Source: an uncultured cyanobacterium
GTDB taxonomy: Bacteria; Cyanobacteriota; Cyanobacteriia; PCC-9006; JAAUQQ01
Reading direction: 5' to 3'
DNA: 64,000 nucleotides
NCBI GenBank assembly: GCA_963718615.1
Contig: OY970368.1
Location: 352,001-416,000 of the forward strand
Shown here: one piece after another, positions 1 to 64,000 of the stretch
Layout of the letters: each line of letters begins with the position of its first letter
How positions within the stretch are numbered: position 1 is the first letter of the stretch
Notes under the pieces: model-generated
What the model saw: the letters and a program-made list of their open reading frames with translations, nothing else
The model's database searches: none
What the model was told of the DNA's origin: nothing
Translations under genes and position numbers: made by a program

Positions 1-111
1 GCTTAGAAGATAAGCGCTTCCTGCGGCGATTTGCTCTGAAATCTAATCGGGTGAAACAGCTAGGGTGAAACAAAATCTGCACAATCCTAGATTGCCTTGA
101 GATTGCGATCG

Positions 112-1065
112 CTAAGAGGCTCGGGCCATCAGATTAGCGGAGTTCGGTACAGGCGTAGCAGGCAACCCCACAACATCATAATTAATTCGATTTTTACCAT
201 GAGTCTTAACGTGATACATCAGCGTATCGGAATGGTCCACGACTTCTTTAACGGTTTTGGGCAATCGAATAAAGGTTGCCACTCCCATACTGAAGCTAAT
301 CGGCCACTGATGTTCCTGGACAATCTGCATGAGTTGCTGCTGTACACGGGGCAACACAATCCGCGCTTCCTGAGGTCCGGTCTGCGGCAACATGAGCGCA
401 AATTCATCCCCACCCAGCCGAGCCACAACATCAATCGATCGCACCTGCTTGAGCATGCATTGAGAGATCAAACTGAGGAGCAAATCCCCAGTTGCATGAC
501 CAAATCGATCGTTAACAGTTTTGAAATTATCGACGTCGATGTAGGCCACGGTCAGGGGGTATCGATAGCGGCGCGATCGCAAACATTCTGCCTGAAGCAG
601 CTCATAGAAATAGCGTCGATTGGTCACGCCGGTTAGCCCATCGGTCCGCGCCAAGCGTTTTTCCCGTTCGTAGCCCGCCTTGAGTGCTGCCAAGAGATGA
701 TTAATCATCATAAAAAATCCCAGACTGACGCTCATATTCCAGTAGGGCAACCAAGGATTACCGCCGTGGAATTGGCTGATCTCGCTGCTGAGCCAGAGAA
801 TCGCGCTGGTCATGGCAATAAAACTGCCAAAATTTACCCCAGCAAACCAAGACCCCATCAAAATGGGCACGGCATAGACAATCGACAAGTTGAGCTCTGA
901 AGGAATCAAATGGTCGACCGTCGCTAGCAGCAAAACCAGCAGCAAACTCAAGATCGCGCTAAAAAAGGGCGGCTGTCCTTCGAGGTAATGAATGACCTGG
1001 GGGAAAGGATTGGCGGGGGGCTTCATGGTTAACGCATCAAGTCTGAAAAAAACACGGTGCAACAA
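112..1065 (-). CDS. Membrane-anchored GGDEF diguanylate cyclase
   Basis: About 4 N-terminal TM segments; TDGLTGVTNRR, YIDVDNFKTVNDRFGH, RSID (RxxD I-site) and ARLGGDEF. ATG start is likely at 1026. Confidence 0.92.
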   Translation of the reverse strand: MLHRVFFRLDALTMKPPANPFPQVIHYLEGQPPFFSAILSLLLVLLLATVDHLIPSELNLSIVYAVPILMGSWFAGVNFGSFIAMTSAILWLSSEISQFHGGNPWLPYWNMSVSLGFFMMINHLLAALKAGYEREKRLARTDGLTGVTNRRYFYELLQAECLRSRRYRYPLTVAYIDVDNFKTVNDRFGHATGDLLLSLISQCMLKQVRSIDVVARLGGDEFALMLPQTGPQEARIVLPRVQQQLMQIVQEHQWPISFSMGVATFIRLPKTVKEVVDHSDTLMYHVKTHGKNRINYDVVGLPATPVPNSANLMARAS

Positions 1066-1274
1066 CCTGTTAGCGAACCAAACGCTGCTCTGATGTCGGC
1101 ATCCCCAGTTGCCGTCCTTAACAAGCTCACCAAATCATTTGCTTGCAAAAAACGATGGGAACTGGGTATGATGATTGCGTATATATACGCAATTGCCTTC
1201 AGGTATAAATTATTATTGTCTAAGCTGCCGAAAATCCAAGGGTGGCTGATGCCCTTATGAAGCCTGACGAAGGA

Positions 1275-1294
1275 ACCCCTGAGGGGTCTGACCC
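1275..1294. promoter_or_regulatory. Candidate HetR-binding box (GGG-N5-CCC)
   Basis: GAGGGGTCTGACCC at 1281-1294 closely resembles the Anabaena hetP site GAGGGGTCTAACCCCTC (recalled); it lies upstream of the GGDEF gene. Confidence 0.4.
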
Positions 1295-1357
1295 ATGGAT
1301 CGCGCCAAGTGTATCACAAAGATATTGCCTGCCTGGGTTTGATGTATAAAAAAATTC

Positions 1358-10064: not shown

Positions 10065-11366
10065 ATGCATGCAGCTGAAAGGAAAGGCACTTCGATGACC
10101 CAATTCGCCGAACCGAGCCGTGGGCTACCTCAGCGGATTTGTTTAGATAATGGCATTGTGGTGCTAGTCACGCCCAACCCGACGGCGGATATCATTGCAG
10201 CTCGGCTCTTTATGCGATCGGGCAGTGCTTGGGAAACCCCGCACAATGCTGGTTTGCTCAATCTCTTAGCTGCGCTGCTAACCAAGGGCACCGAGGATTA
10301 CTCTTCCCTCGAAATTGCAGAACAGGTCGAATCCGTCGGGGCGGGGTTGGGAACGGACGCGGCAACGGATTATCTGTTACTGAGCCTCAAAACCGTATCC
10401 CAGGATTTTCCGGAGCTGTTGCGGCTGGCGGGGGAGATTTTGCGATCGCCCGCCTTTCCCCCCCAAGAGATTGAACTCGAACGCCACCTCACCCTCCAAG
10501 GCATCCGCTCCCAGCAGGAGCAACCCATCTCCCTTGCCTTTGATGCCCTGCGCCAAGCCCTCTACGGTGACCATCCCTACGCCTTGTCGTCCCTAGGGAC
10601 CGAAACCTCCGTGGCACAGATCACCCAAGCGGATTTGCAGGCTTACCATGCCCAGCATTTTCGGCCCGATAACTTGGTGATTAGCATCGCGGGGCGCATT
10701 GACCCAGCCGTTGCCCTTGAGCTCGTTGAAACGATCTTCGGCGACTGGCGACGGCCCGCCAACCCACTTCCAGTCATCAGTTTGCCCCCCGTGGCTTCCC
10801 AGCCCCATCCCGTTCAGCAAACGATTCCTAGCCATCAAGTCATGGTGATGGTCGGACATCTGGCCCCAGCAGTCCACGACCCTCACCATGCTGCGATGAA
10901 GCTGATCAATACCTATCTAGGCAATGGGATGTCCAGCCGGTTATTTGTGGAATTGCGAGAGAAACAGGGGTTGGCCTACGAAGTCTCGACGTTTTACCCG
11001 ACCCGGCTCCATACCGCCCCCTTTGGGGCCTATTTGGGGACCGCCCCCAGTAATACCGTCCAGGCCCTAGAGGGATTGCAAGGGGAGATGGCTCGACTGA
11101 CGACGGTTGCCCTCACCGACGAGGAGCTGCAATCCACCCAAAACAAACTGCTGGGGCAATATGTCCTGGGCAAGCAGACCAACTCTCAAATTGCCCAGAT
11201 CTATGGCTGGTACGAGACGCTCAATTTAGGCATTGACTTTGACCAGCGATTTCAAGCGGAAATCCAGACCCTCACCGCCGAGGATCTTCAAGCTGCGGCC
11301 CAGGCCCATTTCCATGAGCCCTACGTTTCTCTCGTAGGCCCCGCCGAGGTCTTGGACGGACTCTAG
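10065..11366 (+). CDS. M16 family peptidase, non-catalytic partner subunit
   Basis: M16 fold motifs (LTKGT, HPY, SSRLFVELREKQGLAY) but no HxxEH; paired with the upstream gene. Confidence 0.9.
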   Translation: MHAAERKGTSMTQFAEPSRGLPQRICLDNGIVVLVTPNPTADIIAARLFMRSGSAWETPHNAGLLNLLAALLTKGTEDYSSLEIAEQVESVGAGLGTDAATDYLLLSLKTVSQDFPELLRLAGEILRSPAFPPQEIELERHLTLQGIRSQQEQPISLAFDALRQALYGDHPYALSSLGTETSVAQITQADLQAYHAQHFRPDNLVISIAGRIDPAVALELVETIFGDWRRPANPLPVISLPPVASQPHPVQQTIPSHQVMVMVGHLAPAVHDPHHAAMKLINTYLGNGMSSRLFVELREKQGLAYEVSTFYPTRLHTAPFGAYLGTAPSNTVQALEGLQGEMARLTTVALTDEELQSTQNKLLGQYVLGKQTNSQIAQIYGWYETLNLGIDFDQRFQAEIQTLTAEDLQAAAQAHFHEPYVSLVGPAEVLDGL

Positions 11367-30386: not shown

Positions 30387-30422
30387 TAACCAGGCTGGCC
30401 ATGACTGGCTGAGGAACTATCC

Positions 30423-31157: not shown

Positions 31158-31200
31158 AGATAACGCTCCCATTACTTAAGCATGGAGATAGCAAATCATC

Positions 31201-33653: not shown

Positions 33654-33713
33654 GCCGAGTTATCTTGCTCCTGCCCTATATGAATCTTACGCTTAGTTTG
33701 GAAACTTTAAAAA

Positions 33714-34163: not shown

Positions 34164-34196
34164 TGTAAATAGAGTTACATTCAAAGGTTATTTCCC

Positions 34197-43402: not shown

Positions 43403-44491
43403 ATGCATAAGATTCCGGTCACGATTATCACAGGATTTCTGGGTGCTGGCAAAACGACACTGGTTCGCAATCTTTTGCAAAATAACCAAGGCCGTCGCAT
43501 TGCGGTGTTGGTGAATGAGTTTGGCGAAGTCGGGATTGATGGGGATTTACTGCGCGGTTGTCAGGTTTGTGACGAGGAGGAGGTCCCAGGCTCCACCGAA
43601 GAATCCGCCGAATCCGCCGCTGCCAATAACACGGTCAATAACGCTGCCAATATTGTCGAACTGACCAACGGCTGTCTCTGCTGCACGGTCCAGGAGGAGT
43701 TTTTGCCCACGATGGAGGAACTGCTCAAGCGTCGCGATCAGATCGACTGCATGCTGATTGAAACCAGTGGATTGGCAATGCCGAAGCCCTTGGTTCAAGC
43801 CTTTCGCTGGCCGGAGGTACGCACCGGAGCAACGGTGGATGGTGTGGTCACAGTGGTAGATTGTGTGGCGGTGGCTGCGGGGCAATTTGCGTCGAATCTA
43901 GAAGCCCTAGAACAGCAGCGCCAGGCAGATGACAGTTTAGACCATGAAACGCCCCTGGAAGAGTTGTTTGAGGATCAGCTCAACTGTGCGGATTTGGTGC
44001 TGTTGACGAAAGTCGATCAGGTGGAGCCAGCCGTGCGGGAAACGGTGGAGCGGTGGTTGCGATCGCAACTCAAACCCCAAGTCAAAATTATCCCCTGCAC
44101 CCACGGAGAGATCAGCCCTGAGGTTCTGCTGGGGTTTAATGCCGCCGTTGAAGACGATCTAGAGAGTCGGCCCAGCCACCATGACCACGAGCATGAGCAT
44201 GAACACGACGAGCATCTCAATTCGGTGGTGTGGCTCAGTGACGCTGCTTTTGAGCCTCAAGCTCTGATTGCGAAGCTTCAGCAACTGGTAGAAACCCAGG
44301 AAATCTATCGCATTAAGGGGTTTGTCCAGGTGCCGAACAAGCCCATGCGGTTGGTTTTGCAAGGGGTGGGGTCGCGGTTTGATTCCTTTTTCGATCGCCC
44401 TTGGCAACCGGATGAACCGCGACAAACTCGGTTGGTGCTGATTGGGGATGAGCTGGATGGGGAGGCGATCGAGCGTCAGCTTAGCCTGTGA
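43403..44491 (+). CDS. cobW: Cobalamin biosynthesis GTPase/metallochaperone CobW
   Basis: ITGFLGAGKTT, VNEFGE, GCLCCT, ETSGLA, FEDQL, His-rich loop, YRIKG. Confidence 0.95.
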   Translation: MHKIPVTIITGFLGAGKTTLVRNLLQNNQGRRIAVLVNEFGEVGIDGDLLRGCQVCDEEEVPGSTEESAESAAANNTVNNAANIVELTNGCLCCTVQEEFLPTMEELLKRRDQIDCMLIETSGLAMPKPLVQAFRWPEVRTGATVDGVVTVVDCVAVAAGQFASNLEALEQQRQADDSLDHETPLEELFEDQLNCADLVLLTKVDQVEPAVRETVERWLRSQLKPQVKIIPCTHGEISPEVLLGFNAAVEDDLESRPSHHDHEHEHEHDEHLNSVVWLSDAAFEPQALIAKLQQLVETQEIYRIKGFVQVPNKPMRLVLQGVGSRFDSFFDRPWQPDEPRQTRLVLIGDELDGEAIERQLSL

Positions 44492-53606: not shown

Positions 53607-54126
53607 GGCTGGGGTTGCGAAAAAGATGCTGATTGTGCGGGGAGTGGGGTGGGTTGTGGGCTTGGGATTGCGGAGGGGCGATCGGTAAGTTCTATTTTTC
53701 TTTCATGAAATTTACTGAGCTGGGGTTGGAAAATTTGCGTGAAATTGGGGAGCAGCAGTTGCGGGAATGGGGCGAAAGGTGGAGAGAGGGGGCTAAAAGG
53801 GGAGTTTTTGGGTGAGTATTTAGGGTTTTAGTTGATTTTGTCTCGGTGTTCTTAGGGATTGCCTAAGTTTGCAATTTGCTGATTTCTTCGAATAAGAACC
53901 TTAGGTTGATTTGGGCAGTTTAAATTTATAAAAGATGGCTTTTAGCACTGAGTGCTTTAAAGAGGATTGAGTCAATAATTAAGACAAGCGAATCGAAACG
54001 TTGTTTCACCCGGTTGCGATTCTCTTTCAACTTTAGAAAAGCTTGATTAATAAAGCTTTGCTGTCTGGGTTGAGTGTGGGTTTTATTCTCGTTTTCTTTT
54101 TTGATTACTCAGGAGTCTGACAAGAC

Positions 54127-54639
54127 ATGCGTACTTTTAATCGTTTGGCGATCGCTGCTGGTGTTATCCTCGGTTCTTCGGTGCTCTATGCTTCGTCTGC
54201 CATGGCAGCAGATGTGACAATTAGCGGATCTGTTACTTCTCAAGCTAGCGTTACACTAACCAATGGTAATCAAGCCTTAGTTTTGGGAGGCACAGGTACA
54301 GGTACGGGATTAACTGACCATATCGAAAAAGCCGCTGATGTATCGCTGTTCACTAACAATACTGGTGGATTAGAGTTAACAATTACCTCTGGTAACTTAA
54401 CTAATGGTACTCCTGGTAGTAGCACAATTGCCTATCAGGTCGTAACTACCGCCGATACTTTGACACCTGCATCTGGCGACTTTACCCAGGCTTCTAGCAC
54501 AGACAAAAAAGAGAGCATTACTACAGGTTTTACCAATGGTGCATTGGAGCGTGATTTGCATGTAATGTATACAACTCCTGAGTTGTTAGATCCAGGCATA
54601 TATACTGCAACTATCACTGTAACTGTCGCAGATCTGTAG
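54127..54639 (+). CDS. Putative major pilin of a chaperone-usher pilus (Csu/spore-coat-U-like)
   Basis: Signal peptide ending AMA; Thr/Gly-rich beta protein; C-terminal DPGIYTATITVTVADL; AGGAG RBS; first gene of the operon. Confidence 0.75.
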   Translation: MRTFNRLAIAAGVILGSSVLYASSAMAADVTISGSVTSQASVTLTNGNQALVLGGTGTGTGLTDHIEKAADVSLFTNNTGGLELTITSGNLTNGTPGSSTIAYQVVTTADTLTPASGDFTQASSTDKKESITTGFTNGALERDLHVMYTTPELLDPGIYTATITVTVADL

Positions 54640-54763
54640 TTGCGCATTGTCAGCATCGAAAGTCTGCTAAGCCTAGAGCCCGTTTCATAGGGCTTAAGTA
54701 AGGCAGCTCTCTATTCTACGGTGGGATACAGATAGAACTCACCGTAGAAAGCTTACATATTAT

Positions 54764-55240
54764 GTGAATTCATACTGGAGAGAAAGGATGAGAAAAAGCC
54801 TTGTTCTTATAGGATCACTTATTTCTCTGTTCGTAGAAATAAGTGTCTCTGCTCAGCCAGTCTTGAATGTTAATCCTAGTACAGATCGAAATTCATTGAC
54901 TCTAGATGGAACAGGGACATCTTCAACGCATATAGCTAAAATTGCCGACCTTACTGTTTCTAGTGTGGCTCAAAATGGATACACTCTGGTGATCACTTCA
55001 GGCAATATAAGCAAATCTGATGGCCAGGATATTCCCTATCAGGTTACCGCAGTAAATACTGGAACAAACCCAACTTCTGGGAGCTTTACAGTTCCTGCCG
55101 GAAGTTCTTATATCTTGTGTAGCACTACCACTCAATCGTTGGATGTATATATTCGTTATACACCAGCAAGTTTACAGGATCCAGGGCTGTACAGTAGCGT
55201 CGTCAGCGTCACGGCGGAAGACAATGTAAATGCTTGTTGA
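54764..55240 (+). CDS. Second pilin-like subunit
   Basis: Paralogous to the first (L.L.GTGT..HI.K.AD; ITSGN; I.YQV; DPG.Y...V..ED); two Cys. Confidence 0.72.
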   Translation: MNSYWRERMRKSLVLIGSLISLFVEISVSAQPVLNVNPSTDRNSLTLDGTGTSSTHIAKIADLTVSSVAQNGYTLVITSGNISKSDGQDIPYQVTAVNTGTNPTSGSFTVPAGSSYILCSTTTQSLDVYIRYTPASLQDPGLYSSVVSVTAEDNVNAC

Positions 55241-55249
55241 TTAAAACTA

Positions 55250-56026
55250 TTGTTTTCTAGAATTGATATGAAGGCAAGATTATACGGATTAGGATTAGGC
55301 ATTGCTGCTTGCGTAATTACTTTTGCACGCTCAGCGCTTTGTTTCCAGATTCTTCCTATGTCGCAAACGTTTAGTCCATCAGGATCTGGTTCAACGCAAT
55401 CTTATGAAATATCTAACTCTAAAGATGAACCTATTGCGATCGAGGTTTCTGTTGTAAAAAGATTAGTGGATGCTAATGGAGAAGAAACTCAAATACCAGC
55501 AGAAGAAGATTTTGTAATTTATCCACCACAAGTTTTATTAGGACCTCAATCGAAACAAACAGTTAGAGTAACTTGGGTTGGAGATCAAGATCCTAGTCAA
55601 GAACTATCTTTCCGTTTGGTCGTGGAGCAATTACCAGTACCGCTTGAAGTCAAGAAGGAAGGCTCACTACCTCCTAGTCGGGCAGTGGCAGCATTTCAAG
55701 TTATGCTTCGCTATGCTAACTCTCTGTATATTCGTCCTTCTCATGCAAAATCAGATGTTTTGCTTCAGAGTGTAAGTATGGAACGGGATAACGCTGGAAA
55801 GTGGTTACAGGTCCATATTAAAAATCAAGGTACTGCACATCAGACCTTAGAACTCCCGAAAATTCAGCTAACCTCTTCCAATCGCTCGATTATTTTGGAA
55901 GGTGAAGTTTTGGAACCCATTAATAGACGGACGATTTTAGCGGGGGGTGAGCGTCGCTTCCGCATTCCCTGGCCCACCGAACTCCCCGAAGGCGAAGTCA
56001 CCGGACAACTTATCCTGCAAAAATAA
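55250..56026 (+). CDS. Periplasmic fimbrial chaperone (PapD-like)
   Basis: Signal peptide; FVIYPPQVLLGPQSKQTVRV, ELSFRLVVEQLP, IKNQGTAH, ILAGGERRFRIPWP. Confidence 0.88.
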   Translation: MFSRIDMKARLYGLGLGIAACVITFARSALCFQILPMSQTFSPSGSGSTQSYEISNSKDEPIAIEVSVVKRLVDANGEETQIPAEEDFVIYPPQVLLGPQSKQTVRVTWVGDQDPSQELSFRLVVEQLPVPLEVKKEGSLPPSRAVAAFQVMLRYANSLYIRPSHAKSDVLLQSVSMERDNAGKWLQVHIKNQGTAHQTLELPKIQLTSSNRSIILEGEVLEPINRRTILAGGERRFRIPWPTELPEGEVTGQLILQK

Positions 56027-56031: not shown

Positions 56032-58767
56032 ATGGAACAACCCCCTACTCCCCATAGGGCAACGCATCTACACCACCTAAAACGCCTGAGAACCCTTTCC
56101 CTCAGCCTCATCAGCCAACTCAGCTATCCAATCTGGGCCACAGTTCACTGTCCCCTCCTAGCAGAAGTTCCCCCTCCCCCAAGCCTTCACCCCCCCGAAA
56201 CCCCTTCGCCTCTACCCAGCCCGCTTTCTGCTGTTTCTACCGAACCCCTGGCCCCTGAAGCTTTTGCCCCTGAAACTTCAGCCCCTGAGCCACCCGCCCC
56301 TGAGCCACCCGTAGAAACCGACGAAACCGAGCTAGTTCCTGCTGCAACGCCCGATCGCCAAACCCTCTTCGAGCAAGTCTTCGGCAAACCCAAACCGGGC
56401 CAAGCCCAAAACGTCATCATCCCCTGGAGCATCAACCAAAACCGCCAGGGCGAAATGGGCATCAACATTGGCGCAGACCCCAACACCATTAGCTGGAACG
56501 CCACCAGCTTCCTCGAAACCCTCGGCGCAACCGTCAAACCCGAGCTGCAAGCCCAGCTCAAAATTCTCAGCACCCAGGGACCCTTTTCCCCGGAAACGCT
56601 GAAAACCCTGAACATCGAAACCCAATTTAATCCCCAAGACCTCACCCTCAATATCGTTCTTACCCCCGCTCAACTGCGCACCAACGTCGTCACCACCAAA
56701 AGCAACCGCAACAACCTCGACAGTTCGCCCACGGTGAATCCCGCAAAGATTAGTGGCTACGTCAACATGCGCGGCAACCTCGGCTGGAACTGGATTTCCG
56801 AGCGCGACGAAACCGGCAGACAGCCCCTCGCCCTCAGCTGGGACGGCGTAATGAACCTCAACGGCTGGGTTCTCGAAGGTCGCGCTGACTTTACCGAAGA
56901 CGGAACCCCCCGCTGGCGACGGGGAGATTTGCGGCTGACCCATGATTGGCCCACCCTGGCCATGCGCGCCAGCGCCGGAGAAATCTCCACACCCACCACC
57001 GGCTACCAGCGCGGCCAAGCGATTTTAGGCCTTTCTGCGGCACGACAGTTTGGCATTCAACCCGACCGCATCACCCGCCCCATCAGCACCTACGAATTTT
57101 TTCTCGAAGCCCCCTCCGAAGTCGAAATCTACATCAACGGCGACAAAGACCGTACCCTCGACCTGCCCGCCGGAACCCAAGATTTACGAGATCTCTCCCT
57201 CGGCGCAGGCGTCAACGATATTGAACTCGTCATTACAGATCCCGTCGGTCGAGTCCAACGGCTGCAGTTTTTTGCCCCCACCGCCTCACAACTTTTGGCT
57301 CCAGGGCTGCAACAGTTTGCCTATAGTTTTGGCGTGCCCGTGACCAAAGACGGCGAAACCCGCATCTACAACTGGGACGACCCCTTGCTAACCGCTTCCC
57401 ATCGCTGGGGCCTGAGCAATACGCTCACCAGCGGAGCCTATCTGCAAGCGCGCTTAAACCAACAACTCCTCGGTTGGGATGGGGCCTGGGCGACAACCTT
57501 GGGGAGCTTTGATTGGGATCTGGCCCTCAGCCGCGATCCATCCCTTGGTCTCGGCTACGCTGGGAAATTGAACTACAACTATCGCCGAGCCGGGGATACC
57601 CACAATCGAGCCTTAGGGCTGGGTTTGGAATATCGCAGTCCAGACTTTCTCAGCGTTGGAGAAGCAGAGGCCAACAACGACACGGCTTTAGAAGCTCGGC
57701 TCACCTATAGCCAGACCCTGTTTGAGAAAATTCGAGCCAATTTGGGGGCGCGGTACCAGTGGGGACGGGGCGATCGCAATGGCGATCGCAACAATGCCTA
57801 CCGCCTCAACCTCGGCCTCTCCCGCCCCATCGGCCCAGGCCGCAACCTGGGCATCACCCTCAGCCACGAACAGCGGGAAGACGGTTCCACCGACAACCAA
57901 GCCAAAGTTAATTTTTCCATGTCCTTTTCGCCTCGCCAGGGACAAACAATGCGACTGTCCACCGACGCGGATCTCGGCGGCTTTAGCAAACAGCAAATCA
58001 ATTGGAACTACAATCCTCGGGCTGCGTTCAACAGCATCAAAACCGGCGCAACCTTGAACTACACTCCAGAGGATTGGGATGTGAACCAACGCATGTCTTG
58101 GCAGGGGCATCGGGCTCAATTGGAGTTGCAAAACAAAGTTGAAGGGAATACGGGGTCTTGGCTGGATCCGGCATCGATGGAAAGTAATCTGACGTTTGGG
58201 TCGGCGATCGCCTTCGCCGATGGTCACTGGGGCTTCTCCCGTCCCATTAACGGCAGCTTTGCCCTGCTGGTGCCCCATCCCACACTCAAGGATATCGACG
58301 TCGAAATCAACCCCAGCCGCTCCGGTGCCGCCGCAACCATTGACACCTGGGGAGCCGCAATTTTGCCGGGACTGTCGGAATATCGTCTCAACACCGTCAA
58401 TCTAGATGCCCCAGAACTCCCCCTAGGCTATTCCCTCGGTCGCTCCAGCCATCGTCTCCGCCCCAGCTATCGCCGGGGTACGCTGATCACCGTCGGGAAT
58501 GATGCCACGGTCTTCCTACGCGGCATCTTGCAAACTGCCGAAGGGACACCCCTCGAACTGGCCACCGGCGAAGTCATTGCCCTGAATGATCCCCATTGGA
58601 AACCCATCACCCTCTTCACCAACCGCGTCGGCAAGTTTGCCCTCGAAGGCTTTAAGCCCGGTCGCTATACCATTCGGTTGACCAGCGGTGAGCAGCTAGA
58701 GTTTACAATTCCAGAAACAGCCACAGGGGTTTATAACCTCGATATTTTGAAGGTTCCAGCGACCTAA
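56032..58767 (+). CDS. Fimbrial outer-membrane usher
   Basis: 911 aa; RGDLRLTHD, SEVEIYING, GVNDIELVITDPVG, LLAPGLQQFAYSFG, FTNRVGKF; beta-barrel periodicity. Confidence 0.9.
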   Translation: MEQPPTPHRATHLHHLKRLRTLSLSLISQLSYPIWATVHCPLLAEVPPPPSLHPPETPSPLPSPLSAVSTEPLAPEAFAPETSAPEPPAPEPPVETDETELVPAATPDRQTLFEQVFGKPKPGQAQNVIIPWSINQNRQGEMGINIGADPNTISWNATSFLETLGATVKPELQAQLKILSTQGPFSPETLKTLNIETQFNPQDLTLNIVLTPAQLRTNVVTTKSNRNNLDSSPTVNPAKISGYVNMRGNLGWNWISERDETGRQPLALSWDGVMNLNGWVLEGRADFTEDGTPRWRRGDLRLTHDWPTLAMRASAGEISTPTTGYQRGQAILGLSAARQFGIQPDRITRPISTYEFFLEAPSEVEIYINGDKDRTLDLPAGTQDLRDLSLGAGVNDIELVITDPVGRVQRLQFFAPTASQLLAPGLQQFAYSFGVPVTKDGETRIYNWDDPLLTASHRWGLSNTLTSGAYLQARLNQQLLGWDGAWATTLGSFDWDLALSRDPSLGLGYAGKLNYNYRRAGDTHNRALGLGLEYRSPDFLSVGEAEANNDTALEARLTYSQTLFEKIRANLGARYQWGRGDRNGDRNNAYRLNLGLSRPIGPGRNLGITLSHEQREDGSTDNQAKVNFSMSFSPRQGQTMRLSTDADLGGFSKQQINWNYNPRAAFNSIKTGATLNYTPEDWDVNQRMSWQGHRAQLELQNKVEGNTGSWLDPASMESNLTFGSAIAFADGHWGFSRPINGSFALLVPHPTLKDIDVEINPSRSGAAATIDTWGAAILPGLSEYRLNTVNLDAPELPLGYSLGRSSHRLRPSYRRGTLITVGNDATVFLRGILQTAEGTPLELATGEVIALNDPHWKPITLFTNRVGKFALEGFKPGRYTIRLTSGEQLEFTIPETATGVYNLDILKVPAT

Positions 58768-58780: not shown

Positions 58781-59938
58781 ATGCATCGCCCCATTTATCT
58801 CGACAACCATGCCACAACGCCCCTAGATCCGAGGGTGCTGGAAGCCATGCTGCCCTACTTCACCGAAGCCTTTGGCAATCCCGCCAGCACCACCCACAGC
58901 TATGGCTGGGAAGCCCAGGCCGCCGTTCAACAAGCCCGTGAGATCCTCGCGGCTAGCATCAACGCCGAACCCACCGAAATCGTATTCACCAGCGGTGCAA
59001 CGGAAGCCAACAACCTCGCGATCAAAGGGGTCGCCGAAGCCTCTTTCAGCCAGGGTAAACACATCGTCACCGTCGCCACCGAACATTCTGCGGTCCTCGA
59101 TCCCTGTCGCTATCTTGCAACCCTCGGGTTTGAACTAACAATTTTGCCGGTACAACCGGATGGTTTGCTAGACCTTGACCTGTTCAAAGCTGCCCTGCGG
59201 GACGATACGATTTTGGTCTCAGTCATGGCTGCAAATAATGAAATTGGCGTGCTCCAGCCGATTCAAGCGATCGCCGCCCTCTGCCGCGATCGCAATATCC
59301 TTTTCCACACCGACGCCGCCCAAGCCCTCGGCAAAATTCCCCTAGATGTCCAGGCGATGCAAATCGATCTGATGTCGATGACGGCCCACAAACTCTATGG
59401 ACCAAAGGGCATTGGCGCGCTTTATGTGCGTCGTAAAAATCCTCGGGTGCAGTTAGCCCCTCAACTCCATGGGGGGGGCCATGAGCGGGGCCTGCGATCG
59501 GGAACGTTGTACACACCGCAGATTGTGGGGTTTGGAAAGGCGGTGGCATTGGCGCAACAAGAGTCTTTAGGTCAAACCGAGCAAACGGTGAGAGAATTGC
59601 GCGATCGCCTCCATAACGCCCTCAAAGCCCTCGGCGGTGTGCATCTCAACGGTCATCCCACCCAGAGATTACCGGGAAACTTGAATCTCAGTTTTGAGGG
59701 GGTGGCGGGTCCGGCCTTGCTTTTGAAATTGCAGCCGGTGGTGGCGGTTTCGTCGGGTTCGGCTTGTACCTCGGTCAACTCAGACCCTTCCCCTGTGTTG
59801 CTGGCCTTGGGGCGATCGGCTCCGCTCGCCCAGGCTTCGATTCGATTTGGCTTAGGACGATTTACAACGATGGCGGAGGTTGATCGGGTGGCGGCGCATG
59901 TGCGGGAAACGGTGGTGGCGTTGCGGAACGGACGGTAA
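58781..59938 (+). CDS. iscS: Cysteine desulfurase (IscS/NifS type)
   Basis: YLDNHATTP, FTSGATE, HTDAAQ, TAHKLYGPKG (PLP Lys), SSGSACTS. Confidence 0.93.
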   Translation: MHRPIYLDNHATTPLDPRVLEAMLPYFTEAFGNPASTTHSYGWEAQAAVQQAREILAASINAEPTEIVFTSGATEANNLAIKGVAEASFSQGKHIVTVATEHSAVLDPCRYLATLGFELTILPVQPDGLLDLDLFKAALRDDTILVSVMAANNEIGVLQPIQAIAALCRDRNILFHTDAAQALGKIPLDVQAMQIDLMSMTAHKLYGPKGIGALYVRRKNPRVQLAPQLHGGGHERGLRSGTLYTPQIVGFGKAVALAQQESLGQTEQTVRELRDRLHNALKALGGVHLNGHPTQRLPGNLNLSFEGVAGPALLLKLQPVVAVSSGSACTSVNSDPSPVLLALGRSAPLAQASIRFGLGRFTTMAEVDRVAAHVRETVVALRNGR

Positions 59939-60064: not shown

Positions 60065-63000
60065 ATGGATAGTCGTGTGTCTGGAGCAACTCCATCCACC
60101 TCGTCGGTTTACGAGGATCAAACCCAGGCGATCGCCCGCCAACTCCTCTCTGAGAGCCGGGAGAAGCGATCGCTCTTCTCCAAAATGCGGGATCAACTGC
60201 GATGGGACGACAAGCTCCTGGCCTGGACCATGGAGAATCCTGGCCTACGGGTGCAAATGTTTCGATTGATCGATGCCTTGCCAGCCTTGCGCTCTAAGGC
60301 CGAAATTGCCCGACATTTACAGGAGTATCTCGACGACGCCAGCGTTGAACTGCCCCAGGCGCTCAAGGGCCTACTCAACTTTGCCGATGCAACCTCGATG
60401 CCGGGGCAAGTGGCAGCGACGACGCTGTCAACGGCAGTAGAAACCCTCGCACGCAAGTACATCGCCGGGGAAACCCTCAACCAAGCCCTCAAAACCATCG
60501 AGCAACTGCGCAAGCAATCCATGACCTTTACGATGGATTTGCTGGGGGAAGCGGTGATTACAGAGCCGGAAGCTGAGTCCTATCTGAACCAGTATTTGGA
60601 GTTGATGACCCAACTCAGCGAAGCGACAAAGCGTTGGAATTCCGTTCAGCAGATCGATCAAGCAGATGGCGTAGCGTTGCCCAAAGTCCAGGTTTCGGTG
60701 AAGCTGACGGCGTTTTATTCGCAATTCGACCCGCTGGATGTGGAAGGTAGTCGGGCTAAGGTGAGCGATCGCATCCGTATCCTCCTGCGCAGGGCCAAGG
60801 AACTGGGTGCAGCGGTTCACTTTGACATGGAACAGTATCGCTATAAGGACGCGACGCTAGAAACCCTGAAACAGTTGCTGATGGAACCGGAATTTCGCGA
60901 TCGCACCGATCTCGGCATCACCTTCCAAGCCTATCTGCGGGACAGCTACAAAGACTTAAAAGACTGGATCGAGTGGGTAAAACAACGGGGCAATCCCCTG
61001 ACGGTCCGCTTGGTGAAAGGCGCTTACTGGGATCAGGAAACGATTTTGTCGCGCCAAAACCATTGGCCCACACCGGTTTATAACCACAAGTCTTCCACCG
61101 ATGCCAACTTTGAGCGGATGACACAGTTGCTATTAGAACATCACGAGTATTTGTACGCAGCCATTGGCAGCCACAACGTCCGCTCCCAAGCCCATGCCCT
61201 GGCGATCGCCCAAACCCTCAACATCCCCCCCCGCAACATCGAATTCCAAGTCCTCTACGGCATGGCCGACAACCTCGCCACCGCCCTCGTCAAACAGGGC
61301 CACCGCGTCCGCGTCTACTGCCCCTACGGCGACCTCATCCCCGGCATGGCCTACCTGATCCGGCGACTGCTGGAAAACACCGCCAACAGCTCCTTCCTGC
61401 GCCAGAACCTAGAGGAACGCCCCGTAGAAGAATTGCTCGTGATCCCCGCTTGGGGAGAGGGCGATGGCGATACGGATACTGTTCGACCGACTGCGATCGC
61501 CTCTACAACTGATCCGGTGATCCGGATTAATCCGGCGGCAGATACCGATTATGCGATCGCCCCTCTCCGCGACACAGCCCTAGCCGCACTGACCAAGGTG
61601 CGTCAGCAACTTGGCAAAACCTACTGGCCCATCGTCAATGGTGAAGCCATCCAAACAGACGCTAAGGTTGAATCGGTTAACCCGTCTAACCCCTCCGAAA
61701 TTGTGGGAACCGTGGGGCAGATCAGCATTGAGCAGGCAGATGGGGCGATCGCCGCTGCCAAAGTTGCCTTTGAAACCTGGAAACGCACCCCAGCCCAGGA
61801 ACGAGCCGCGATCATTCGCAAGGCCGGAGACTTGCTGGAGCAACGCCGCCATGAGCTGAATGCTTGGATGGTGTTGGAAGGCGGGAAGCCGTTGCACCAA
61901 GCCGATGCGGAGGTGTCAGAGGCGGCGGATTTCTGTCGGTATTATGCGGCGGAGATGGAGCGGCTCGATCAGGACATTAATTATGATGTGGCGGGGGAGC
62001 GCGATCGCTACCACTACCGGCCCAAGGGCATTGTCCTGGTGATTTCCCCCTGGAATTTCCCCCTCGCCATCCCCACGGGCATGACCGTCGCAGCCCTCGT
62101 AACTGGCAACTGTGCCCTGCTCAAACCCGCAGCGGTGACCTCGGTGATTGCGGCAAAGCTGAGCGAGATTTTGCTAGAGGCGGGCCTTCCTCGGGGAGTA
62201 TTCCAATACGTGCCCGGTCGCGGTTCGACGGTGGGCAATCACTTGGTTAAGCATCCCGACACCCACATGATTGTCTTTACCGGCTCCCAGGAAGTCGGCT
62301 GTCAAATCTATGCCGATGCCGCGATTTTGCAACCGGGGCAAAAGCATCTCAAGCGTGTGGTGGCGGAAATGGGCGGCAAGAATGCCATCATCGTCGATGA
62401 AAGTGCCGACCTGGATCAAGCGGTCCAAGGGGTTGTCTATTCTGCCTTCGGCTACAGTGGCCAGAAGTGCTCCGCCTGTTCCCGCGTGGTGGTGATGGCT
62501 TCGATTTACGAGACTTTTGTAGCACGTCTTGTAGAAGCAACCCAGTCCCTTAATGTTGGCGACGCATCCAAGCCTAGCACTAAGGTCGGCCCGGTGATCG
62601 ACGCAGCGGCCCAGGCCAAGATCCGCGAGTACATCGCCAAGGGCAAGGCGGAAGCGACGCTGGCGGTGGAGTTGCCCTCGCCGGAGCCGGGATATTTTGT
62701 CGGCCCTGTGGTGTTTACGGATGTCGATCCCCAGGCGGCGATCGCCCAGGAGGAAATCTTTGGGCCGGTGTTGGCGGTGATCAAGGCGGGGGATTTTGAC
62801 CAGGCTTTGGCGATCGCCAACGGCACCCACTACGCCCTCACCGGCGGTCTCTACTCCCGCACGCCGTCCCACATTGCCCAGGCGGAGGCGGAGTTTGAGG
62901 TAGGGAATTTGTATATTAATCGCAGCATTACGGGGGCGATCGTGGCACGGCAACCGTTCGGCGGCTTTAAGCTCTCGGGGGTGGGCTCGAAGGCGGGGGG

Positions 63001-63169: not shown

Positions 63170-63424
63170 CTACAGATTATAGAGGTAGTTGACAATGCCC
63201 TCCTCTGCTTTAATGACAGGCAAAAACAACTGATACTCCCATCCTTCTCCAGCAGGACGATCCTTTTTAGCGATGTAGTCTTGCCTTGGCCCCCCTTTTC
63301 CTTCCACGCCTGCATAACGTTCAACTGTGTGAAAAATGAATACTCTGGCGTAAGCGTAGCTGAGTAAGTATATGCACAGCATACCCAATAGAATCGGGAG
63401 TAATTTACTGTTTTTCTGCATCAT
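63170..63424 (-). CDS. Small membrane-anchored hypothetical protein (cassette-like)
   Basis: MMQKNSKLLPILLGMLCIYLLSYAYARVF..; lower GC; downstream of the attC-like site. Confidence 0.6.
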   Translation of the reverse strand: MMQKNSKLLPILLGMLCIYLLSYAYARVFIFHTVERYAGVEGKGGPRQDYIAKKDRPAGEGWEYQLFLPVIKAEEGIVNYLYNL

Positions 63425-63572
63425 TGATCGAGTGAGTTGTGAAAATAGCGATCCTGTACTATACAAGATTTCACAGTTTGAGGCTCTAAAACAGGAACAC
63501 TGCAAGCTTAGAGAGGAGAATGAGGGTCTGAGGCGAGAGACTGAGGGGATGCCCAAACTGGGGAATTAAGCC

Positions 63573-63660
63573 GTCCAACGACCCCGTTCACCCGCCGCTG
63601 GCAATCTTTCGGACTCACCAACCAACTTGATTCGGTCGGTGTGCAACGGGATTGTTATAC
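63573..63660 (-). mobile_element. Integron attC-like recombination site (88 bp)
   Basis: Minus strand runs from GTATAAC (R'') to GTTGGAC (R', GTTRRRY); arms CCCGTT(G)CAC(A)CCG(A)CCG and CGGCGGGTGAACGGG pair with three extrahelical bases; starts 11 nt after the upstream stop codon. Confidence 0.65.
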
Positions 63661-63671
63661 TGCGACCGCGA

Positions 63672-64000
63672 TCAGAATGGCTTGGAACGCCGTAAAAAAT
63701 TCTCTGCGAAAACTTCCGGTTGCCCTACTAACTCGCTATCGGGATCTTGGTTACGAAAGAGTAGCCCAATACCGAAGTCTTCATTTCCAAATTTTCGTTG
63801 CAGATACCTCCAATTTTCAATAAGGTAGCGCGAACTTCCAAGCGTTGCACTTGAACCAAGTCCGGCGCAAATAAAGACGCTGATCTTCTTGTCTACATCA
63901 TAAAATCTATGAATGAATGCAGGTTCTACACGCTGGTCACGACCTTCCCCGGTAATTGAATCTGCTAAACCATCTTGGCGAACACCCATCACTCGTTGAC
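63672..64000 (-). CDS. Hypothetical protein, probably 5'-truncated by the window edge (cassette-like)
   Basis: AT-richer ORF open to the edge and ending immediately before the attC-like site. Confidence 0.55.
   Translation of the reverse strand, partial: QRVMGVRQDGLADSITGEGRDQRVEPAFIHRFYDVDKKISVFICAGLGSSATLGSSRYLIENWRYLQRKFGNEDFGIGLLFRNQDPDSELVGQPEVFAENFLRRSKPF

What the first reader, a model, noticed from the sequence alone, without database searches (positions are those of the whole stretch)
1..64000. HIP1 (GCGATCGC) sites mark local strand-skew switch points: G/T-rich on the 5' side, C/A-rich on the 3' side
Seen by eye: composition flips sharply at many HIP1 sites, in genes on either strand. 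Examples: 10442 (GGCGGGGGAGATTTT|GCGATCGC|CCGCCTTTCCCCCCC), 20897 (GGGGGGGAGTTGGGAGAGATAGTG|..|GCCATCCCCGCCAGCCCATCCAAC), 22452, 23282, 27304, 38316, 44059, 57770, 59601, 61202, 62001, 62810. The tracts run tens to hundreds of nt and appear carried by synonymous positions. The foreign 30.4-35.1 kb and 54.1-55.9 kb blocks show little of it. Established: HIP1 is methylated and its function is unresolved; a methyl-directed repair role has been proposed. Inference: recurrent nicking at HIP1 with 5'->3' excision would leave the opposite strand single-stranded 5' of its own HIP1, where C->T and A->G deamination would give exactly this polarity. That would be a mutational footprint of an HIP1-initiated repair or recombination system.
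Basis: partly seen in the sequence, partly recalled or inferred. Interest (0 to 1): 0.85.

Follow-up and report, generated by a model that had tools for sequence, protein, structure and literature searches.

The report
Strand skew flips at HIP1 palindromes
In this cyanobacterium and many others, the DNA on either side of each copy of the abundant 8-base palindrome HIP1 is lopsided in G versus C in a mirror-image way, which looks like the scar of a repair or recombination process that starts at HIP1.

Summary
In the window, 57 of 101 HIP1 sites are G-rich on the left and C-rich on the right, against 19% of random positions; 3 are reversed. In the whole 6.1-Mb genome (8,800 sites), GC skew on the strand 5' of HIP1 is +0.34 next to the site and reaches zero near 150 nt. 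Among 64 palindromic hexamers, only CGATCG shows a weaker version. The signal sits mainly at synonymous sites. It is equal and opposite in the arms upstream and downstream of HIP1 within genes, and it is present but weaker in intergenic DNA. In orthologous comparisons it follows HIP1 presence and is strongest at conserved sites. It recurs in 80 other cyanobacterial genomes pooled (z = 11), but two HIP1-rich genomes lack it.

Deamination alone is not enough: at fourfold sites G replaces C, T does not rise, and purine content rises. My best reading, at 0.6, is a footprint of a short, strand-polar repair or recombination tract anchored at HIP1. I found no report of this in the searched literature.

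The parts
1..64000 (.). 101 HIP1 (GCGATCGC) sites, each with a G-rich arm on its 5' side and a C-rich arm on its 3' side when read on either strand. The arms are detectable out to about 100-150 nt.
   Evidence: One search gives the site list; 57 of 101 sites have left > 0 and right < 0, 3 of 101 are reversed, and the mean antisymmetric skew over 0-60 nt is +0.174 +- 0.016.
10442..10449 (.). Listed HIP1 site; flips on both sides.
   Evidence: GC skew left +0.18, right -0.51 (60 nt each side).
20897..20904 (.). Listed HIP1 site; flips on both sides.
   Evidence: left +0.72, right -0.41.
22452..22459 (.). Listed HIP1 site; flips on both sides.
   Evidence: left +0.49, right -0.25.
23282..23289 (.). 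Listed HIP1 site; flips on both sides.
   Evidence: left +0.38, right -0.67.
27304..27311 (.). Listed HIP1 site; only the right arm fits.
   Evidence: left -0.29, right -0.59.
38316..38323 (.). Listed HIP1 site; flips on both sides.
   Evidence: left +0.23, right -0.46.
44059..44066 (.). Listed HIP1 site; flips on both sides.
   Evidence: left +0.41, right -0.35.
57770..57777 (.). Listed HIP1 site; flips on both sides. A second HIP1 lies 4 nt to its right, at 57782.
   Evidence: left +0.28, right -0.44. for the second site.
59601..59608 (.). Listed HIP1 site; flips on both sides.
   Evidence: left +0.23, right -0.33.
61202..61209 (.). Listed HIP1 site; only the right arm fits.
   Evidence: left -0.28, right -0.54.
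62001..62008 (.). Listed HIP1 site; flips on both sides.
   Evidence: left +0.45, right -0.33.
62810..62817 (.). Listed HIP1 site; flips on both sides.
   Evidence: left +0.47, right -0.46.
30400..35100 (.).
   Evidence: mean antisymmetric skew +0.076 against +0.17 to +0.20 in the other three stretches; GC 51.4%.
54100..55900 (.). Low-GC block (41.9% GC) with a single HIP1 site; too few sites to judge the skew.
   Evidence: two ORFs with no Pfam match, followed by a PapD-like chaperone gene.

Best explanation
HIP1 anchors a recurrent, strand-polar DNA transaction. Something acts at the site: a nick, a break, or a protein that fixes which strand is treated as 'new'. From there a short tract runs away from the site. 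The typical tract length is about 40 nt, with a tail to about 150 nt. Inside the tract the two strands are treated unequally, so base changes are made or kept with a bias. The strand lying 5' of HIP1 gains G and loses C, and A and T stay about neutral. Its partner, which lies 3' of HIP1 on the other strand, gains C and loses G. Because the site is a palindrome, the same thing happens on both sides, and over evolutionary time this writes the mirror-image skew.

My preferred version (about 0.3 of the 0.6) is this. The strand 3' of HIP1 is the one that is resynthesised, or is the incoming strand of a heteroduplex. Mispairs containing G (G.T, G.G, G.A) are corrected against that strand. Mispairs containing C without G (C.C, C.T, C.A) escape correction more often, so that strand drifts towards C. 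This ranking of mispairs is recalled from E. coli MutS and pneumococcal Hex work, not from a call.

5'->3' excision exposes the strand 5' of HIP1 as single-stranded DNA. C is then lost to T, G and A, and A is lost to G, by damage and error-prone gap filling.

Shown here:
- site specificity;
- polarity;
- decay with distance;
- location at synonymous and intergenic sites;
- equal size in gene-upstream and gene-downstream arms;
- dependence on HIP1 presence and on site age;
- variation between lineages.

Inferred, not shown:
- the nick or break;
- the tract;
- the direction of excision;
- the mismatch bias;
- whether the bias acts on mutation or on fixation (gene conversion between chromosome copies or with transforming DNA).
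For: 1. Specificity. HIP1 is the top one of 154 palindromic octamers. Of 64 hexamers far from HIP1, only CGATCG is clearly positive. An unbiased scan of all 4-, 6- and 8-mers for switch points more than 200 nt from HIP1 finds HIP1-derived words leading the + to - class (CGATCG z 10.7, GATCGC z 9.1), with no comparable motif for the reverse switch.

2. Not an extended motif, hairpin or repeat. Mirrored complementarity equals expectation beyond position +-1. K-mer asymmetry in the arms is explained by additive composition (R2 0.90 for 4-mers). Unique arms give the same value as all arms.

3. Neutral-site signature. GC skew at third codon positions is +0.42 at 10-20 nt, against a baseline of +0.02 to +0.045. 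First and second positions shift much less. Intergenic DNA shows ln(G/C) +0.26 to +0.28 at 10-30 nt.

4. Not coupled to transcription. The fourfold ln(G/C) shift at 10-20 nt is 0.84 in gene-upstream arms and 0.82 in gene-downstream arms.

5. One additive preference fits everything. G about +0.44 to +0.48, C about -0.45 to -0.53, and A and T about 0 reproduces both twofold and fourfold sites. The fourfold frequencies predicted from the twofold values are A .140, C .198, G .478, T .184. The observed ones are .139.222.459.180 (my arithmetic).

6. Tract-like decay. A single exponential gives lambda 38 nt. A two-component fit is better, with 13 and 54 nt.

7. The skew follows HIP1 (325 kb aligned to family relatives at 73% identity).
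- HIP1 in both genomes (n = 237): G000 (the window's own genome) +0.115 +- 0.009, relative +0.100 +- 0.008.
- G000 only (n = 212): +0.075 against +0.011 +- 0.009 in the relative.
- Relative only (n = 106): +0.080 against +0.027 +- 0.013 in G000.
- Paired difference, genome with HIP1 minus genome without: +0.060 +- 0.007.

8. Generality. 80 loci from 80 other cyanobacterial records (1,228 sites) give +0.038 +- 0.0034. Of the 44 loci with at least 12 sites, 41 are positive. Of 33 control hexamers only CGATCG is significant.

9. Known analogue with the same polarity. At human meiotic break hotspots, the strand left single-stranded by 5'->3' resection carries C>N and A>N mutations (PMC7615360, passages read).

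10. Independent experimental hints. HIP1 acts in recombination or DNA uptake in Synechococcus PCC 7002, in a methylation-dependent, Chi-like manner (bioRxiv 10.1101/2024.09.10.611283, abstract).
Against: - No direct evidence of nicks, gaps or tracts at HIP1.
- No candidate nuclease was found. MutH was not found in this genome. Vsr was not found in 21 of 21 genomes.
- MutS and MutL are present in genomes with and without the skew, including the two clear nulls G016 and G012. Their presence therefore does not explain the difference between lineages.
- Intergenic DNA shows only about a third of the fourfold-site shift (0.26 against 0.6-0.84). A purely neutral process does not predict this unless intergenic sites or their HIP1 copies are younger or constrained. 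This is unexplained.
- Skew autocorrelation is about twice as high in skew-positive genomes, even more than 250 nt from any HIP1. Part of the local skew structure is therefore not tied to present-day HIP1 sites.
- Two HIP1-rich genomes have no skew in whole-genome counts (G016 +0.016 +- 0.014, G012 -0.003 +- 0.011). HIP1 alone is not sufficient.
- Equilibrium composition cannot separate mutation bias from fixation bias or from weak selection.
- The orthologue test was done at 73% identity, where synonymous sites are saturated. It shows coupling, not strictly the order of events.
Confidence: 0.6

Rival explanations
1. Selected flank. The G-rich (and slightly T-rich) 5' arm is a functional part of the HIP1 element. 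It could be a preferred substrate for RecA loading or strand pairing on the 3'-ended strand produced at a Chi-like palindromic hotspot, or part of a DNA-uptake signal. On this reading it is kept by selection, or by the recombination advantage of such alleles.
For: - The polarity (G/T-rich on the strand that would end 3' at the site) matches the Chi picture. In E. coli, Chi lies in GT-rich islands of preferred RecA pairing sequences. That paper (Tracy, Chedin and Kowalczykowski 1997) is recalled, not read. The RecA preference for TGG-type sequence and its likeness to Chi is stated in the abstract of PMC3763553 (search listing).
- HIP1 raises transformation and recombination efficiency in PCC 7002 (abstract).
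- HIP1 abundance correlates with transformation-linked genes across cyanobacteria (PMC13756078, abstract).
- The skew is strong enough to shift amino-acid usage.
Against: - The signal is almost purely compositional, with no preferred word such as TGG or GTG beyond additive G-over-C.
- T is not enriched at fourfold sites.
- Selection would have to act on roughly 50-100 synonymous positions at each of 17,600 arms.
- The smooth decay with distance looks like a distribution of tract lengths rather than an element with an edge.
- Two HIP1-rich genomes lack the skew altogether.
Confidence: 0.15
2. Recurrent nicking at HIP1 is followed by 5'->3' excision. Only C->T and A->G deamination of the exposed opposite strand then produces the skew.
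For: - The polarity is right.
- At twofold sites, T rises at the expense of C (C fraction 0.386 to 0.271) and G at the expense of A (G fraction 0.53 to 0.645) on the 5'-arm strand.
- TA skew is positive (+0.026 +- 0.0013).
Against: - Transitions cannot change purine content, yet the purine fraction at fourfold sites rises from 0.457 to 0.598 and from 0.554 to 0.686.
- At fourfold sites T falls slightly (0.193 to 0.180 and 0.149 to 0.130) and A hardly moves, while G replaces C.
- The shift is present in all eight fourfold codon families and after every neighbouring base, with no deamination-type context.
Confidence: 0.08
3. Reverse causation. Local switches from G-rich to C-rich sequence exist for another reason, and HIP1 sites are preferentially created or retained at them.
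For: - Skew autocorrelation is raised genome-wide, also far from HIP1.
- One-mismatch relatives of HIP1 carry a small antisymmetric skew, S about 0.00-0.03.
- Orthologous places lacking HIP1 by one mismatch show +0.033 +- 0.018.
Against: - Orthologous places lacking HIP1 have essentially no skew (+0.017 overall; +0.007 +- 0.012 when the octamer differs at 4-8 positions), while the genome that has HIP1 shows +0.077.
- Conserved sites are more skewed than lineage-specific ones (+0.115 against +0.075).
- No other word marks such switches.
Confidence: 0.07
4. An RNA-level or translation-level cause. Because the pattern is antisymmetric round a palindrome, every transcript sees G-rich sequence before HIP1 and C-rich sequence after it. 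The skew could therefore serve mRNA structure or decoding.
For: - The shift is about three times stronger at fourfold sites in genes than in intergenic DNA.
Against: - It is clearly present in long intergenic gaps at least 100 nt from any called gene (ln(G/C) +0.25 to +0.26 at 10-30 nt).
- There is no excess of mirrored pairing that a hairpin would need.
- The shift is of equal size upstream and downstream of HIP1 within genes.
Confidence: 0.03

Closest known systems
Strand-asymmetric mutation round meiotic double-strand-break hotspots in humans (Hinch et al. 2023, PMC7615360; passages read)
   Same: A defined site where DNA is broken. There is a mirror-image asymmetry on its two sides. The strand that ends 3' at the break (left of the site on the forward strand) loses C and A, and this includes C>G and A>G changes.
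   Different: That case was measured as de novo mutations, over 1-2 kb of resection, in a eukaryote. Here I see only equilibrium composition, over tens of nucleotides, at 8,800 copies of a methylated 8-base palindrome in a bacterium. No break has been shown.
Elhai's GmeC-directed mismatch-repair model for HIP sequences (Life 2015, PMC4390886; section 3.4 read)
   Same: It proposes that HIP1 is the strand-discrimination site of a MutH-like nicking step. That would make HIP1 the start of excision tracts.
   Different: The model explains how HIP1 sites accumulate. It says nothing about flank composition beyond a 1-2 base palindromic extension (section 2.4, passages), and it predicts no polarity. 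The nicking enzyme is hypothetical. My test of its 7-base functional unit was inconclusive.
Chi and its GT-rich surroundings in E. coli; the Chi-like behaviour proposed for HIP1 in PCC 7002 (bioRxiv 10.1101/2024.09.10.611283, abstract)
   Same: A short recombination signal with G/T-rich sequence on the strand that becomes the 3' tail.
   Different: Chi is asymmetric and is read by RecBCD from one side. HIP1 is a palindrome with two mirror arms. Here the enrichment is in G far more than in T, and no preferred word is seen. The E. coli island paper is recalled, not read.
Replication-linked GC skew (origin and terminus switches)
   Same: G and T excess on one strand, with the sign changing at a defined point.
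   Different: That skew has one or two switches per replicon and domains of megabases. This genome shows no replichore-scale skew but has 8,800 local switches. 26.7% of the genome lies within 100 nt of one.
Very-short-patch repair of deaminated 5-methylcytosine (Vsr plus Pol I)
   Same: A nick made inside a methylated palindrome, followed by a short 5'->3' resynthesis patch of tens of nucleotides.
   Different: Vsr was not found in any of the 21 genomes searched. The only PF00145 methylase gene of this genome lies beside a PstI-type endonuclease gene.

Membership tests
Replication origin/terminus skew switch | Few switch points per replicon, with skew domains on the chromosome scale | tested here: not met
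   200-kb windows show no two-domain pattern; the switch is centred on 8,800 sites and fades by about 150 nt.
Transcription-coupled strand asymmetry | The sign follows the transcribed strand, and the skew is absent from untranscribed DNA | tested here: not met
   equal and opposite shifts in gene-upstream (0.84) and gene-downstream (0.82) arms; present in gaps of at least 600 nt, at least 100 nt from called genes.
Extended palindrome or hairpin element (REP-like, cruciform) | Mirrored positions are complementary beyond the core | tested here: not met
   observed pairing equals expectation at positions 2-60. Only position 1 is enriched (0.450 against 0.391).
Dam/MutH methyl-directed mismatch repair | MutH endonuclease present | tested here: not met
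   PF02976 was not found in the complete genome. The E. coli control was found.
Dam/MutH methyl-directed mismatch repair | GATC adenine methylase, MutS and MutL present | tested here: met
   one PF02086 gene. MutS_I and MutL_C are present in this genome. Their sequence specificity was not tested.
Very-short-patch repair | Vsr endonuclease present | tested here: not met
   0 of 21 genomes. The controls E. coli, B. subtilis and Caulobacter matched PF03852 (two of the three over the curated cut-off).
Very-short-patch repair | Cytosine-5 methylase acting on CGATCG | tested here: inconclusive
   the single PF00145 gene is adjacent to a BsuBI/PstI-type endonuclease gene. Its specificity was not determined.
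Chi-like hotspot in G/T-rich pairing islands | G/T-rich sequence on the strand 5' of the site | tested here: inconclusive
   G is strongly enriched and T only weakly. No TGG/GTG-type word stands out beyond composition.
Chi-like hotspot in G/T-rich pairing islands | The site stimulates recombination through a dedicated helicase-nuclease | not testable with these tools
   There is only the PCC 7002 transformation data of others (abstract).
Break-anchored single-strand mutational asymmetry | Mirror-image loss of C and A on the strand ending 3' at the site | tested here: met
   C falls strongly. A falls at twofold sites (0.47 to 0.355) and slightly at fourfold sites. These are composition data, not mutations.
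Break-anchored single-strand mutational asymmetry | A physical break or nick at the site | not testable with these tools
   Needs nick, break or single-strand mapping.
Elhai GmeC-directed repair | The 7-mers GCGATCG and CGATCGC are the functional unit, so each arm depends on its own flanking G | tested here: inconclusive
   One search shows skew only on the intact side of NCGATCGC variants. The same pattern is expected from skew autocorrelation, and position-2 variants show the opposite asymmetry, as autocorrelation predicts.

The most novel reading that the evidence does not exclude
HIP1 is a palindromic, two-sided initiator of short repair or recombination tracts. It would be a bacterial counterpart of a programmed break hotspot, or a bidirectional Chi. 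Its activity drives a strand-polar biased conversion that has rewritten synonymous sites, and measurably shifted amino-acid usage, in about a quarter of the genome. The amplitude of the skew would then be a per-lineage read-out of HIP1 activity. It ranges from 0 to +0.20 at position -16 among eight HIP1-bearing genomes (seven HIP1-rich; G014 has about a tenth as many sites). It could be used as a trait for phylogenetic profiling to find the still unknown HIP1-acting enzyme.
Probability: 0.35. Interest if true: 0.9.

Novelty: new variant of a known kind. Interest (0 to 1): 0.8.

Why it matters
HIP1 was described about thirty years ago and its function is still debated. Proposals include repair signal, chromosome structure, uptake sequence and Chi-like site.

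A strong, polar, site-specific footprint in the flanks is a new kind of evidence, for four reasons.
- It says that something strand-specific happens at HIP1, and that it runs outward for tens of nucleotides.
- It gives the polarity and the base preferences that any candidate mechanism must reproduce.
- It varies between lineages, from none to strong. That makes the responsible genes findable by comparative genomics.
- It makes direct tests simple: nick or single-strand mapping, and strand-resolved mutation spectra against side and distance from HIP1.

It also matters for practice. 26.7% of this genome lies within 100 nt of a HIP1 site. Codon usage, GC-skew analyses, substitution models and even amino-acid composition are locally biased there. 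Gly, Val, Glu, Met and Trp are up about 18-35% on the gene-upstream side relative to the downstream side, and Pro, His, Thr, Asn, Gln and Ile go the opposite way.

I found no mention of it in print. Four full-text searches and passages of the main HIP1 papers gave no report of a compositional skew round HIP1.

Tried and rejected
1. Half-site rule. One-mismatch variants NCGATCGC keep skew only on the intact side: +0.044 to +0.054 against -0.010 to +0.014. I first read this as each arm depending on its own flanking G. I rejected that as evidence. A word's own G/C excess predicts same-sign flanks in this genome, and position-2 variants show the reverse asymmetry, exactly as that confound predicts. 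The antisymmetric part for the variants is only 0.00-0.03.

2. 'Both gene orientations' as evidence for a DNA-level cause. This is forced by the symmetry of a palindrome. I replaced it with the comparison of amplitudes in gene-upstream and gene-downstream arms.

3. Replichore dependence. It could not be tested, because the genome has no clear replication skew.

4. Enzyme presence or absence.
- Vsr: 0 of 21 genomes.
- MutH: 0 of 1.
- MutS_I: 19 of 21. MutL_C: 18 of 21. Both are present in the null genomes G016 and G012.
- PF00145: 11 of 21, with no clean fit. G015 has skew but no hit; G011 has three hits and weak skew.
- PF01555 methylase orthologue: present in null genome G016.

5. Lead: a close orthologue of the Dam-like methylase goes with skew. 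I tested this prospectively with whole-genome counts at position -16.
- Close orthologue: G000 +0.204, G023 +0.166.
- Only distant homologues: G068 +0.083, G011 +0.067, G030 +0.065, G014 +0.036 (not significant), G016 +0.016 (not significant), G012 -0.003.
This is a trend, not a switch. The genomes are few and related, so I make no claim.

6. Model organism check. The first 50 kb of Synechocystis PCC 6803 plasmid pSYSM holds 32 HIP1 sites with skew -0.011 +- 0.023. That is uninformative, and I fetched no more of it.

7. Polarising substitutions. The nearest genomes are 70-78% identical. Among the 80 hisG loci, only a few pairs of 5-11 kb are 90-95% identical. This is too little, so I did not attempt it.

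8. Sequencing runs and read laying were not used. 20 kb would give too few variants near HIP1 to decide anything.

9. G047 and G022 turned out not to be HIP1-rich (22 and 226 matches), so I dropped them from the comparison.

10. The gene calls are my own crude ORF and codon-score caller (4,851 genes). Codon-position classes inherit its errors.

Full report
WHAT WAS CLAIMED.

- The window has 101 HIP1 sites, where dinucleotide-preserving shuffles give 1.6.
- With 60 nt on each side, 57 of 101 sites have positive GC skew on the left and negative on the right, and 3 of 101 are reversed. Of 5,000 random positions, 19.3% and 18.6% fall in these classes.
- The mean antisymmetric skew is +0.174 +- 0.016 at HIP1 and 0.000 at random positions.
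Sites 27304 and 61202 fit only on the right.

IT HOLDS GENOME-WIDE AND IS SPECIFIC.
- The window is bases 352001-416000 of a single 6,095,823-base contig with 52.3% GC and 8,800 HIP1 sites.
- Left-arm GC skew is +0.335 at 0-10 nt, +0.176 at 10-20, +0.131 at 20-30, +0.090 at 30-40 and +0.066 at 40-50. It reaches zero near 150 nt. The right arm mirrors it.
- A caution: for a palindrome the averaged profile must be antisymmetric. Only the sign and size are findings.
- The size is large. The per-site mean at 10-100 nt is +0.0741 +- 0.0014, and the whole distribution is shifted, with 71% of sites positive.
- Duplicated sequence is not the cause. Only 181 of 17,662 arms are duplicated, and the unique arms give +0.0735.
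- HIP1 is the top one of 154 palindromic octamers with at least 30 sites; the others average -0.002 with sd 0.017.
- Of 64 palindromic hexamers more than 250 nt from any HIP1, only CGATCG is clearly positive (+0.0205, z 8.3). The other GATC-containing hexamers are at zero.
- A scan of all 4-, 6- and 8-mers for switch points away from HIP1 finds HIP1-derived words at the top. It finds no comparable word for the reverse switch.
- The T/A component exists but is about three times weaker (+0.026 +- 0.0013).

ANATOMY. I called genes with a simple ORF and codon-score method (4,851 genes, 84.8% coding).
- The skew is concentrated at third codon positions: GC3 skew +0.42 at 10-20 nt, +0.23 at 30-50 and +0.13 at 75-100, against a baseline of +0.02 to +0.045. 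First and second positions move much less.
- 'Genes on either strand' is not independent evidence, because symmetry forces it. The informative comparison is between the arm upstream and the arm downstream of HIP1 within genes. The fourfold-site shift in ln(G/C) at 10-20 nt is 0.84 and 0.82 respectively. This argues against a transcription-coupled cause.
- Intergenic DNA also shows the shift (ln(G/C) +0.26 to +0.28 at 10-30 nt), including in long gaps far from called genes. It is only about a third as strong there as at fourfold sites. I cannot explain this difference. Younger or faster-turning-over intergenic sequence is one possibility.
- There is no extended palindrome. Mirrored complementarity equals expectation beyond position 1.
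- There is no special word in the arms. Additive composition explains the k-mer asymmetries (R2 0.90 for 4-mers).
- The shift occurs in all eight fourfold codon families and after every following base. It is somewhat larger next to a like base.
- It decays with a length constant of about 38 nt. A two-component fit with 13 and 54 nt is better.
- It is strong enough to alter proteins. Gly, Val, Glu, Met and Trp are about 18-35% more frequent in the ten codons upstream of HIP1 than in the ten downstream. Pro, His, Thr, Asn, Gln and Ile go the other way.
- 26.7% of the genome lies within 100 nt of a HIP1 site.

WHICH BASE CHANGES. On the strand 5' of HIP1:
- Fourfold sites show G 0.311 to 0.459, C 0.350 to 0.222, A 0.146 to 0.139 and T 0.193 to 0.180 where that strand is the coding strand. 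The same pattern appears where it is the template strand.
- Purine content therefore rises from 0.457 to 0.598, and from 0.554 to 0.686. Transitions cannot do this, and T does not rise.
- A single additive preference (G about +0.45, C about -0.5, A and T about 0 in log units), estimated from twofold sites, predicts the fourfold frequencies closely: predicted A .140, C .198, G .478, T .184; observed .139.222.459.180 (my arithmetic).
- So deamination alone is insufficient. G-for-C exchange is the largest component.

DOES THE SKEW FOLLOW HIP1? The nearest genomes held are other genera of the same family, 70-78% identical in DNA. I aligned 325 kb of them, and of the closest hisG loci, to this genome (388 blastn segments, mean identity 73%). 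I then classified HIP1 sites inside the alignments.
- HIP1 in both genomes (n = 237): +0.115 +- 0.009 here and +0.100 +- 0.008 in the relative.
- HIP1 only here (n = 212): +0.075 +- 0.009 here and +0.011 +- 0.009 in the relative.
- HIP1 only in the relative (n = 106): +0.080 +- 0.012 there and +0.027 +- 0.013 here.
- Paired difference, genome with HIP1 minus genome without: +0.060 +- 0.007.
- Orthologous places whose octamer differs from HIP1 at 4-8 positions have no skew (+0.007 +- 0.012).
- Some sites of this genome are counted against more than one relative. As unique sites, 214 are conserved (+0.108) and 170 are not (+0.081).
A smaller first run gave the same picture. The skew is thus tied to the presence of HIP1 in that lineage and is larger at older sites. 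At this divergence synonymous sites are saturated, so the test shows coupling and maintenance. It does not strictly show the order of events.

HOW GENERAL?
- Samples of 48-200 kb from other genomes of the class give, at 10-100 nt:
  - two family relatives: +0.067 +- 0.010 and +0.058 +- 0.011;
  - G015 +0.042 (z 6.0), G009 +0.047 (z 3.7), G013 +0.040 (z 3.2), G019 +0.024 (z 2.7), G011 +0.015 (z 1.7);
  - G016, G012 and G014 about 0.
- A genome whose iterated palindrome is GGGATCCC gives -0.017.
- Whole-genome counts of G against C at position -16, both arms, give: this genome +0.204 +- 0.010 (5,899 against 3,900, confirmed by my own count), G023 +0.166, G068 +0.083, G011 +0.067, G030 +0.065, G014 +0.036 (not significant), G016 +0.016 (not significant) and G012 -0.003 (4,303 against 4,325).
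- Eighty loci round hisG from 80 named cyanobacterial records (1.17 Mb, 1,228 HIP1 sites), mostly Leptolyngbya-like filamentous forms, pool to +0.038 +- 0.0034. The profile falls from +0.119 at 3-10 nt to +0.010 at 150-200 nt. Of the 44 loci with at least 12 sites, 41 are positive. Of 33 control hexamers only CGATCG is significant.
- The effect is therefore widespread among HIP1-rich cyanobacteria and never reversed. Its strength varies from none to strong, so HIP1 alone is not sufficient.

ENZYMES.
- This genome has a Dam-like methylase, one PF01555 methylase, MutS and MutL, no MutH and no Vsr (0 of 21 genomes).
- Its only PF00145 cytosine-5 methylase gene lies between a photolyase gene and a BsuBI/PstI-type endonuclease gene. 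The usual statement that HIP1 carries m5C was established in Synechocystis 6803 (PMC6105098, passages). It may not hold in this organism.
- MutS and MutL occur in genomes with and without the skew.
- A close orthologue of the Dam-like methylase tends to go with stronger skew. A prospective check gave only a trend.

MECHANISM. The data call for something that:
- (i) is anchored at HIP1;
- (ii) treats the two strands unequally, with a polarity set by the side of the site;
- (iii) reaches tens of nucleotides with a tail to about 150;
- (iv) favours G and disfavours C on the 5'-arm strand, including transversions;
- (v) does not depend on transcription direction;
- (vi) accumulates with site age;
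- (vii) differs in strength between lineages.
A short repair or recombination tract starting at HIP1 fits all seven. I see two versions.
- Version (a). The strand 3' of the site is resynthesised, or is the donor strand of a heteroduplex, and correction acts against it. Mispairs with G are well recognised, and C.C, C.T and to a degree C.A are poorly recognised. That ranking is recalled, not from a call. Changes that pass through C-containing mispairs then survive. The strand drifts to C and away from G, with A and T neutral. This is the additive pattern observed.
- Version (b). Exactly this asymmetry, with the same polarity, is reported round human meiotic break hotspots (PMC7615360). Version (b) predicts a rise of T at fourfold sites that is not seen, so I weight (a) slightly higher.
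Neither a nick nor a tract has been shown. Composition cannot tell mutation bias from fixation bias.

RIVALS.
- Selection for a G-rich 3' tail at a Chi-like site (0.15).
- Deamination only (0.08).
- HIP1 born at pre-existing switches (0.07).
- An RNA-level cause (0.03).

COMPARISON WITH WHAT IS KNOWN.
- The main HIP1 papers describe abundance, conservation, periodic spacing, 1-2-base palindromic extensions, associated methylases and a role in transformation.
- None of the passages I read mentions a compositional skew of the flanks.
- Four full-text searches combining HIP1 or its sequence with skew, flanking or asymmetry found nothing relevant.
- Supplements were closed, and subscription journals are not in the library.
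- Site-anchored strand asymmetries are known at replication origins, at transcription starts and at meiotic break hotspots.
- What appears new is such an asymmetry at a short, hyper-abundant, methylated bacterial palindrome, repeated thousands of times per genome and reaching into protein composition.

VERDICT. The finding is of high interest because it turns the old question of what HIP1 does into a set of direct, cheap tests.

Noticed in passing
window 52803-53606 (+), and 52720-52770: A TauE/SafE-family membrane protein gene (Pfam E 2e-47) is extremely G/T-rich. The 52-54 kb bin has GC skew +0.35, the highest in the window. Just upstream lies a 15-nt tandem repeat (GGGGTGATGGGGTCA, 3.5 copies). 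The gene holds four HIP1 sites, but its skew is one-signed across the gene, so it is not the HIP1 pattern.
   Followed up: partly
window 54127-58767 (+): A low-GC block (42% GC at 54.1-55.9 kb) opens a chaperone-usher pilus-like cluster: two ORFs with no Pfam match (possible pilins), a PapD-like chaperone gene (55250-56026) and an usher gene (56032-58767). The 56-58 kb bin has GC skew -0.23.
   Followed up: partly
whole genome (G000) and samples of G002, G003, G013: Autocorrelation of G-minus-C at lags of 12-150 nt is about twice as high in skew-positive genomes (0.013 against 0.0065 at lags 12-30). In this genome it is just as high more than 250 nt from any HIP1. Local skew domains that are not tied to present HIP1 sites remain unexplained. 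Decayed sites are one possibility.
   Followed up: partly
whole genome (G000): There is no replichore-scale GC skew. 200-kb windows wander between -0.034 and +0.034 without a two-domain pattern.
   Followed up: no
G000:C1:6016168-6019643 (locus L191): The genome's only PF00145 cytosine-5 methylase gene lies between a DNA photolyase gene and a BsuBI/PstI-type restriction endonuclease gene. This looks like a restriction-modification pair rather than an orphan HIP1 methylase.
   Followed up: partly
G010 (200-kb sample, loci L029-L038): This genome has no HIP1. Instead GGGATCCC is hyper-abundant (259 sites in 200 kb), and its flanks show no positive skew (-0.017 +- 0.007).
   Followed up: partly
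relatives; matches to the Dam-like methylase of G000:C1:731486-732382: Many orthologues show one in-frame stop inside the region matched to the first ~20 residues of the query. The TTG-started ORF I used is probably over-extended at its N-terminus, rather than these genes being broken.
   Followed up: no
whole genome (G000), genes: HIP1 is not evenly spread over reading frames: 3,759 sites as GCG-ATC-GC, 2,897 as .GC-GAT-CGC and 1,298 as ..G-CGA-TCG-C. HIP1 density is 0.95 per kb in intergenic DNA and 0.75 per kb in the most atypical tenth of genes, against about 1.65 per kb in typical genes.
   Followed up: no
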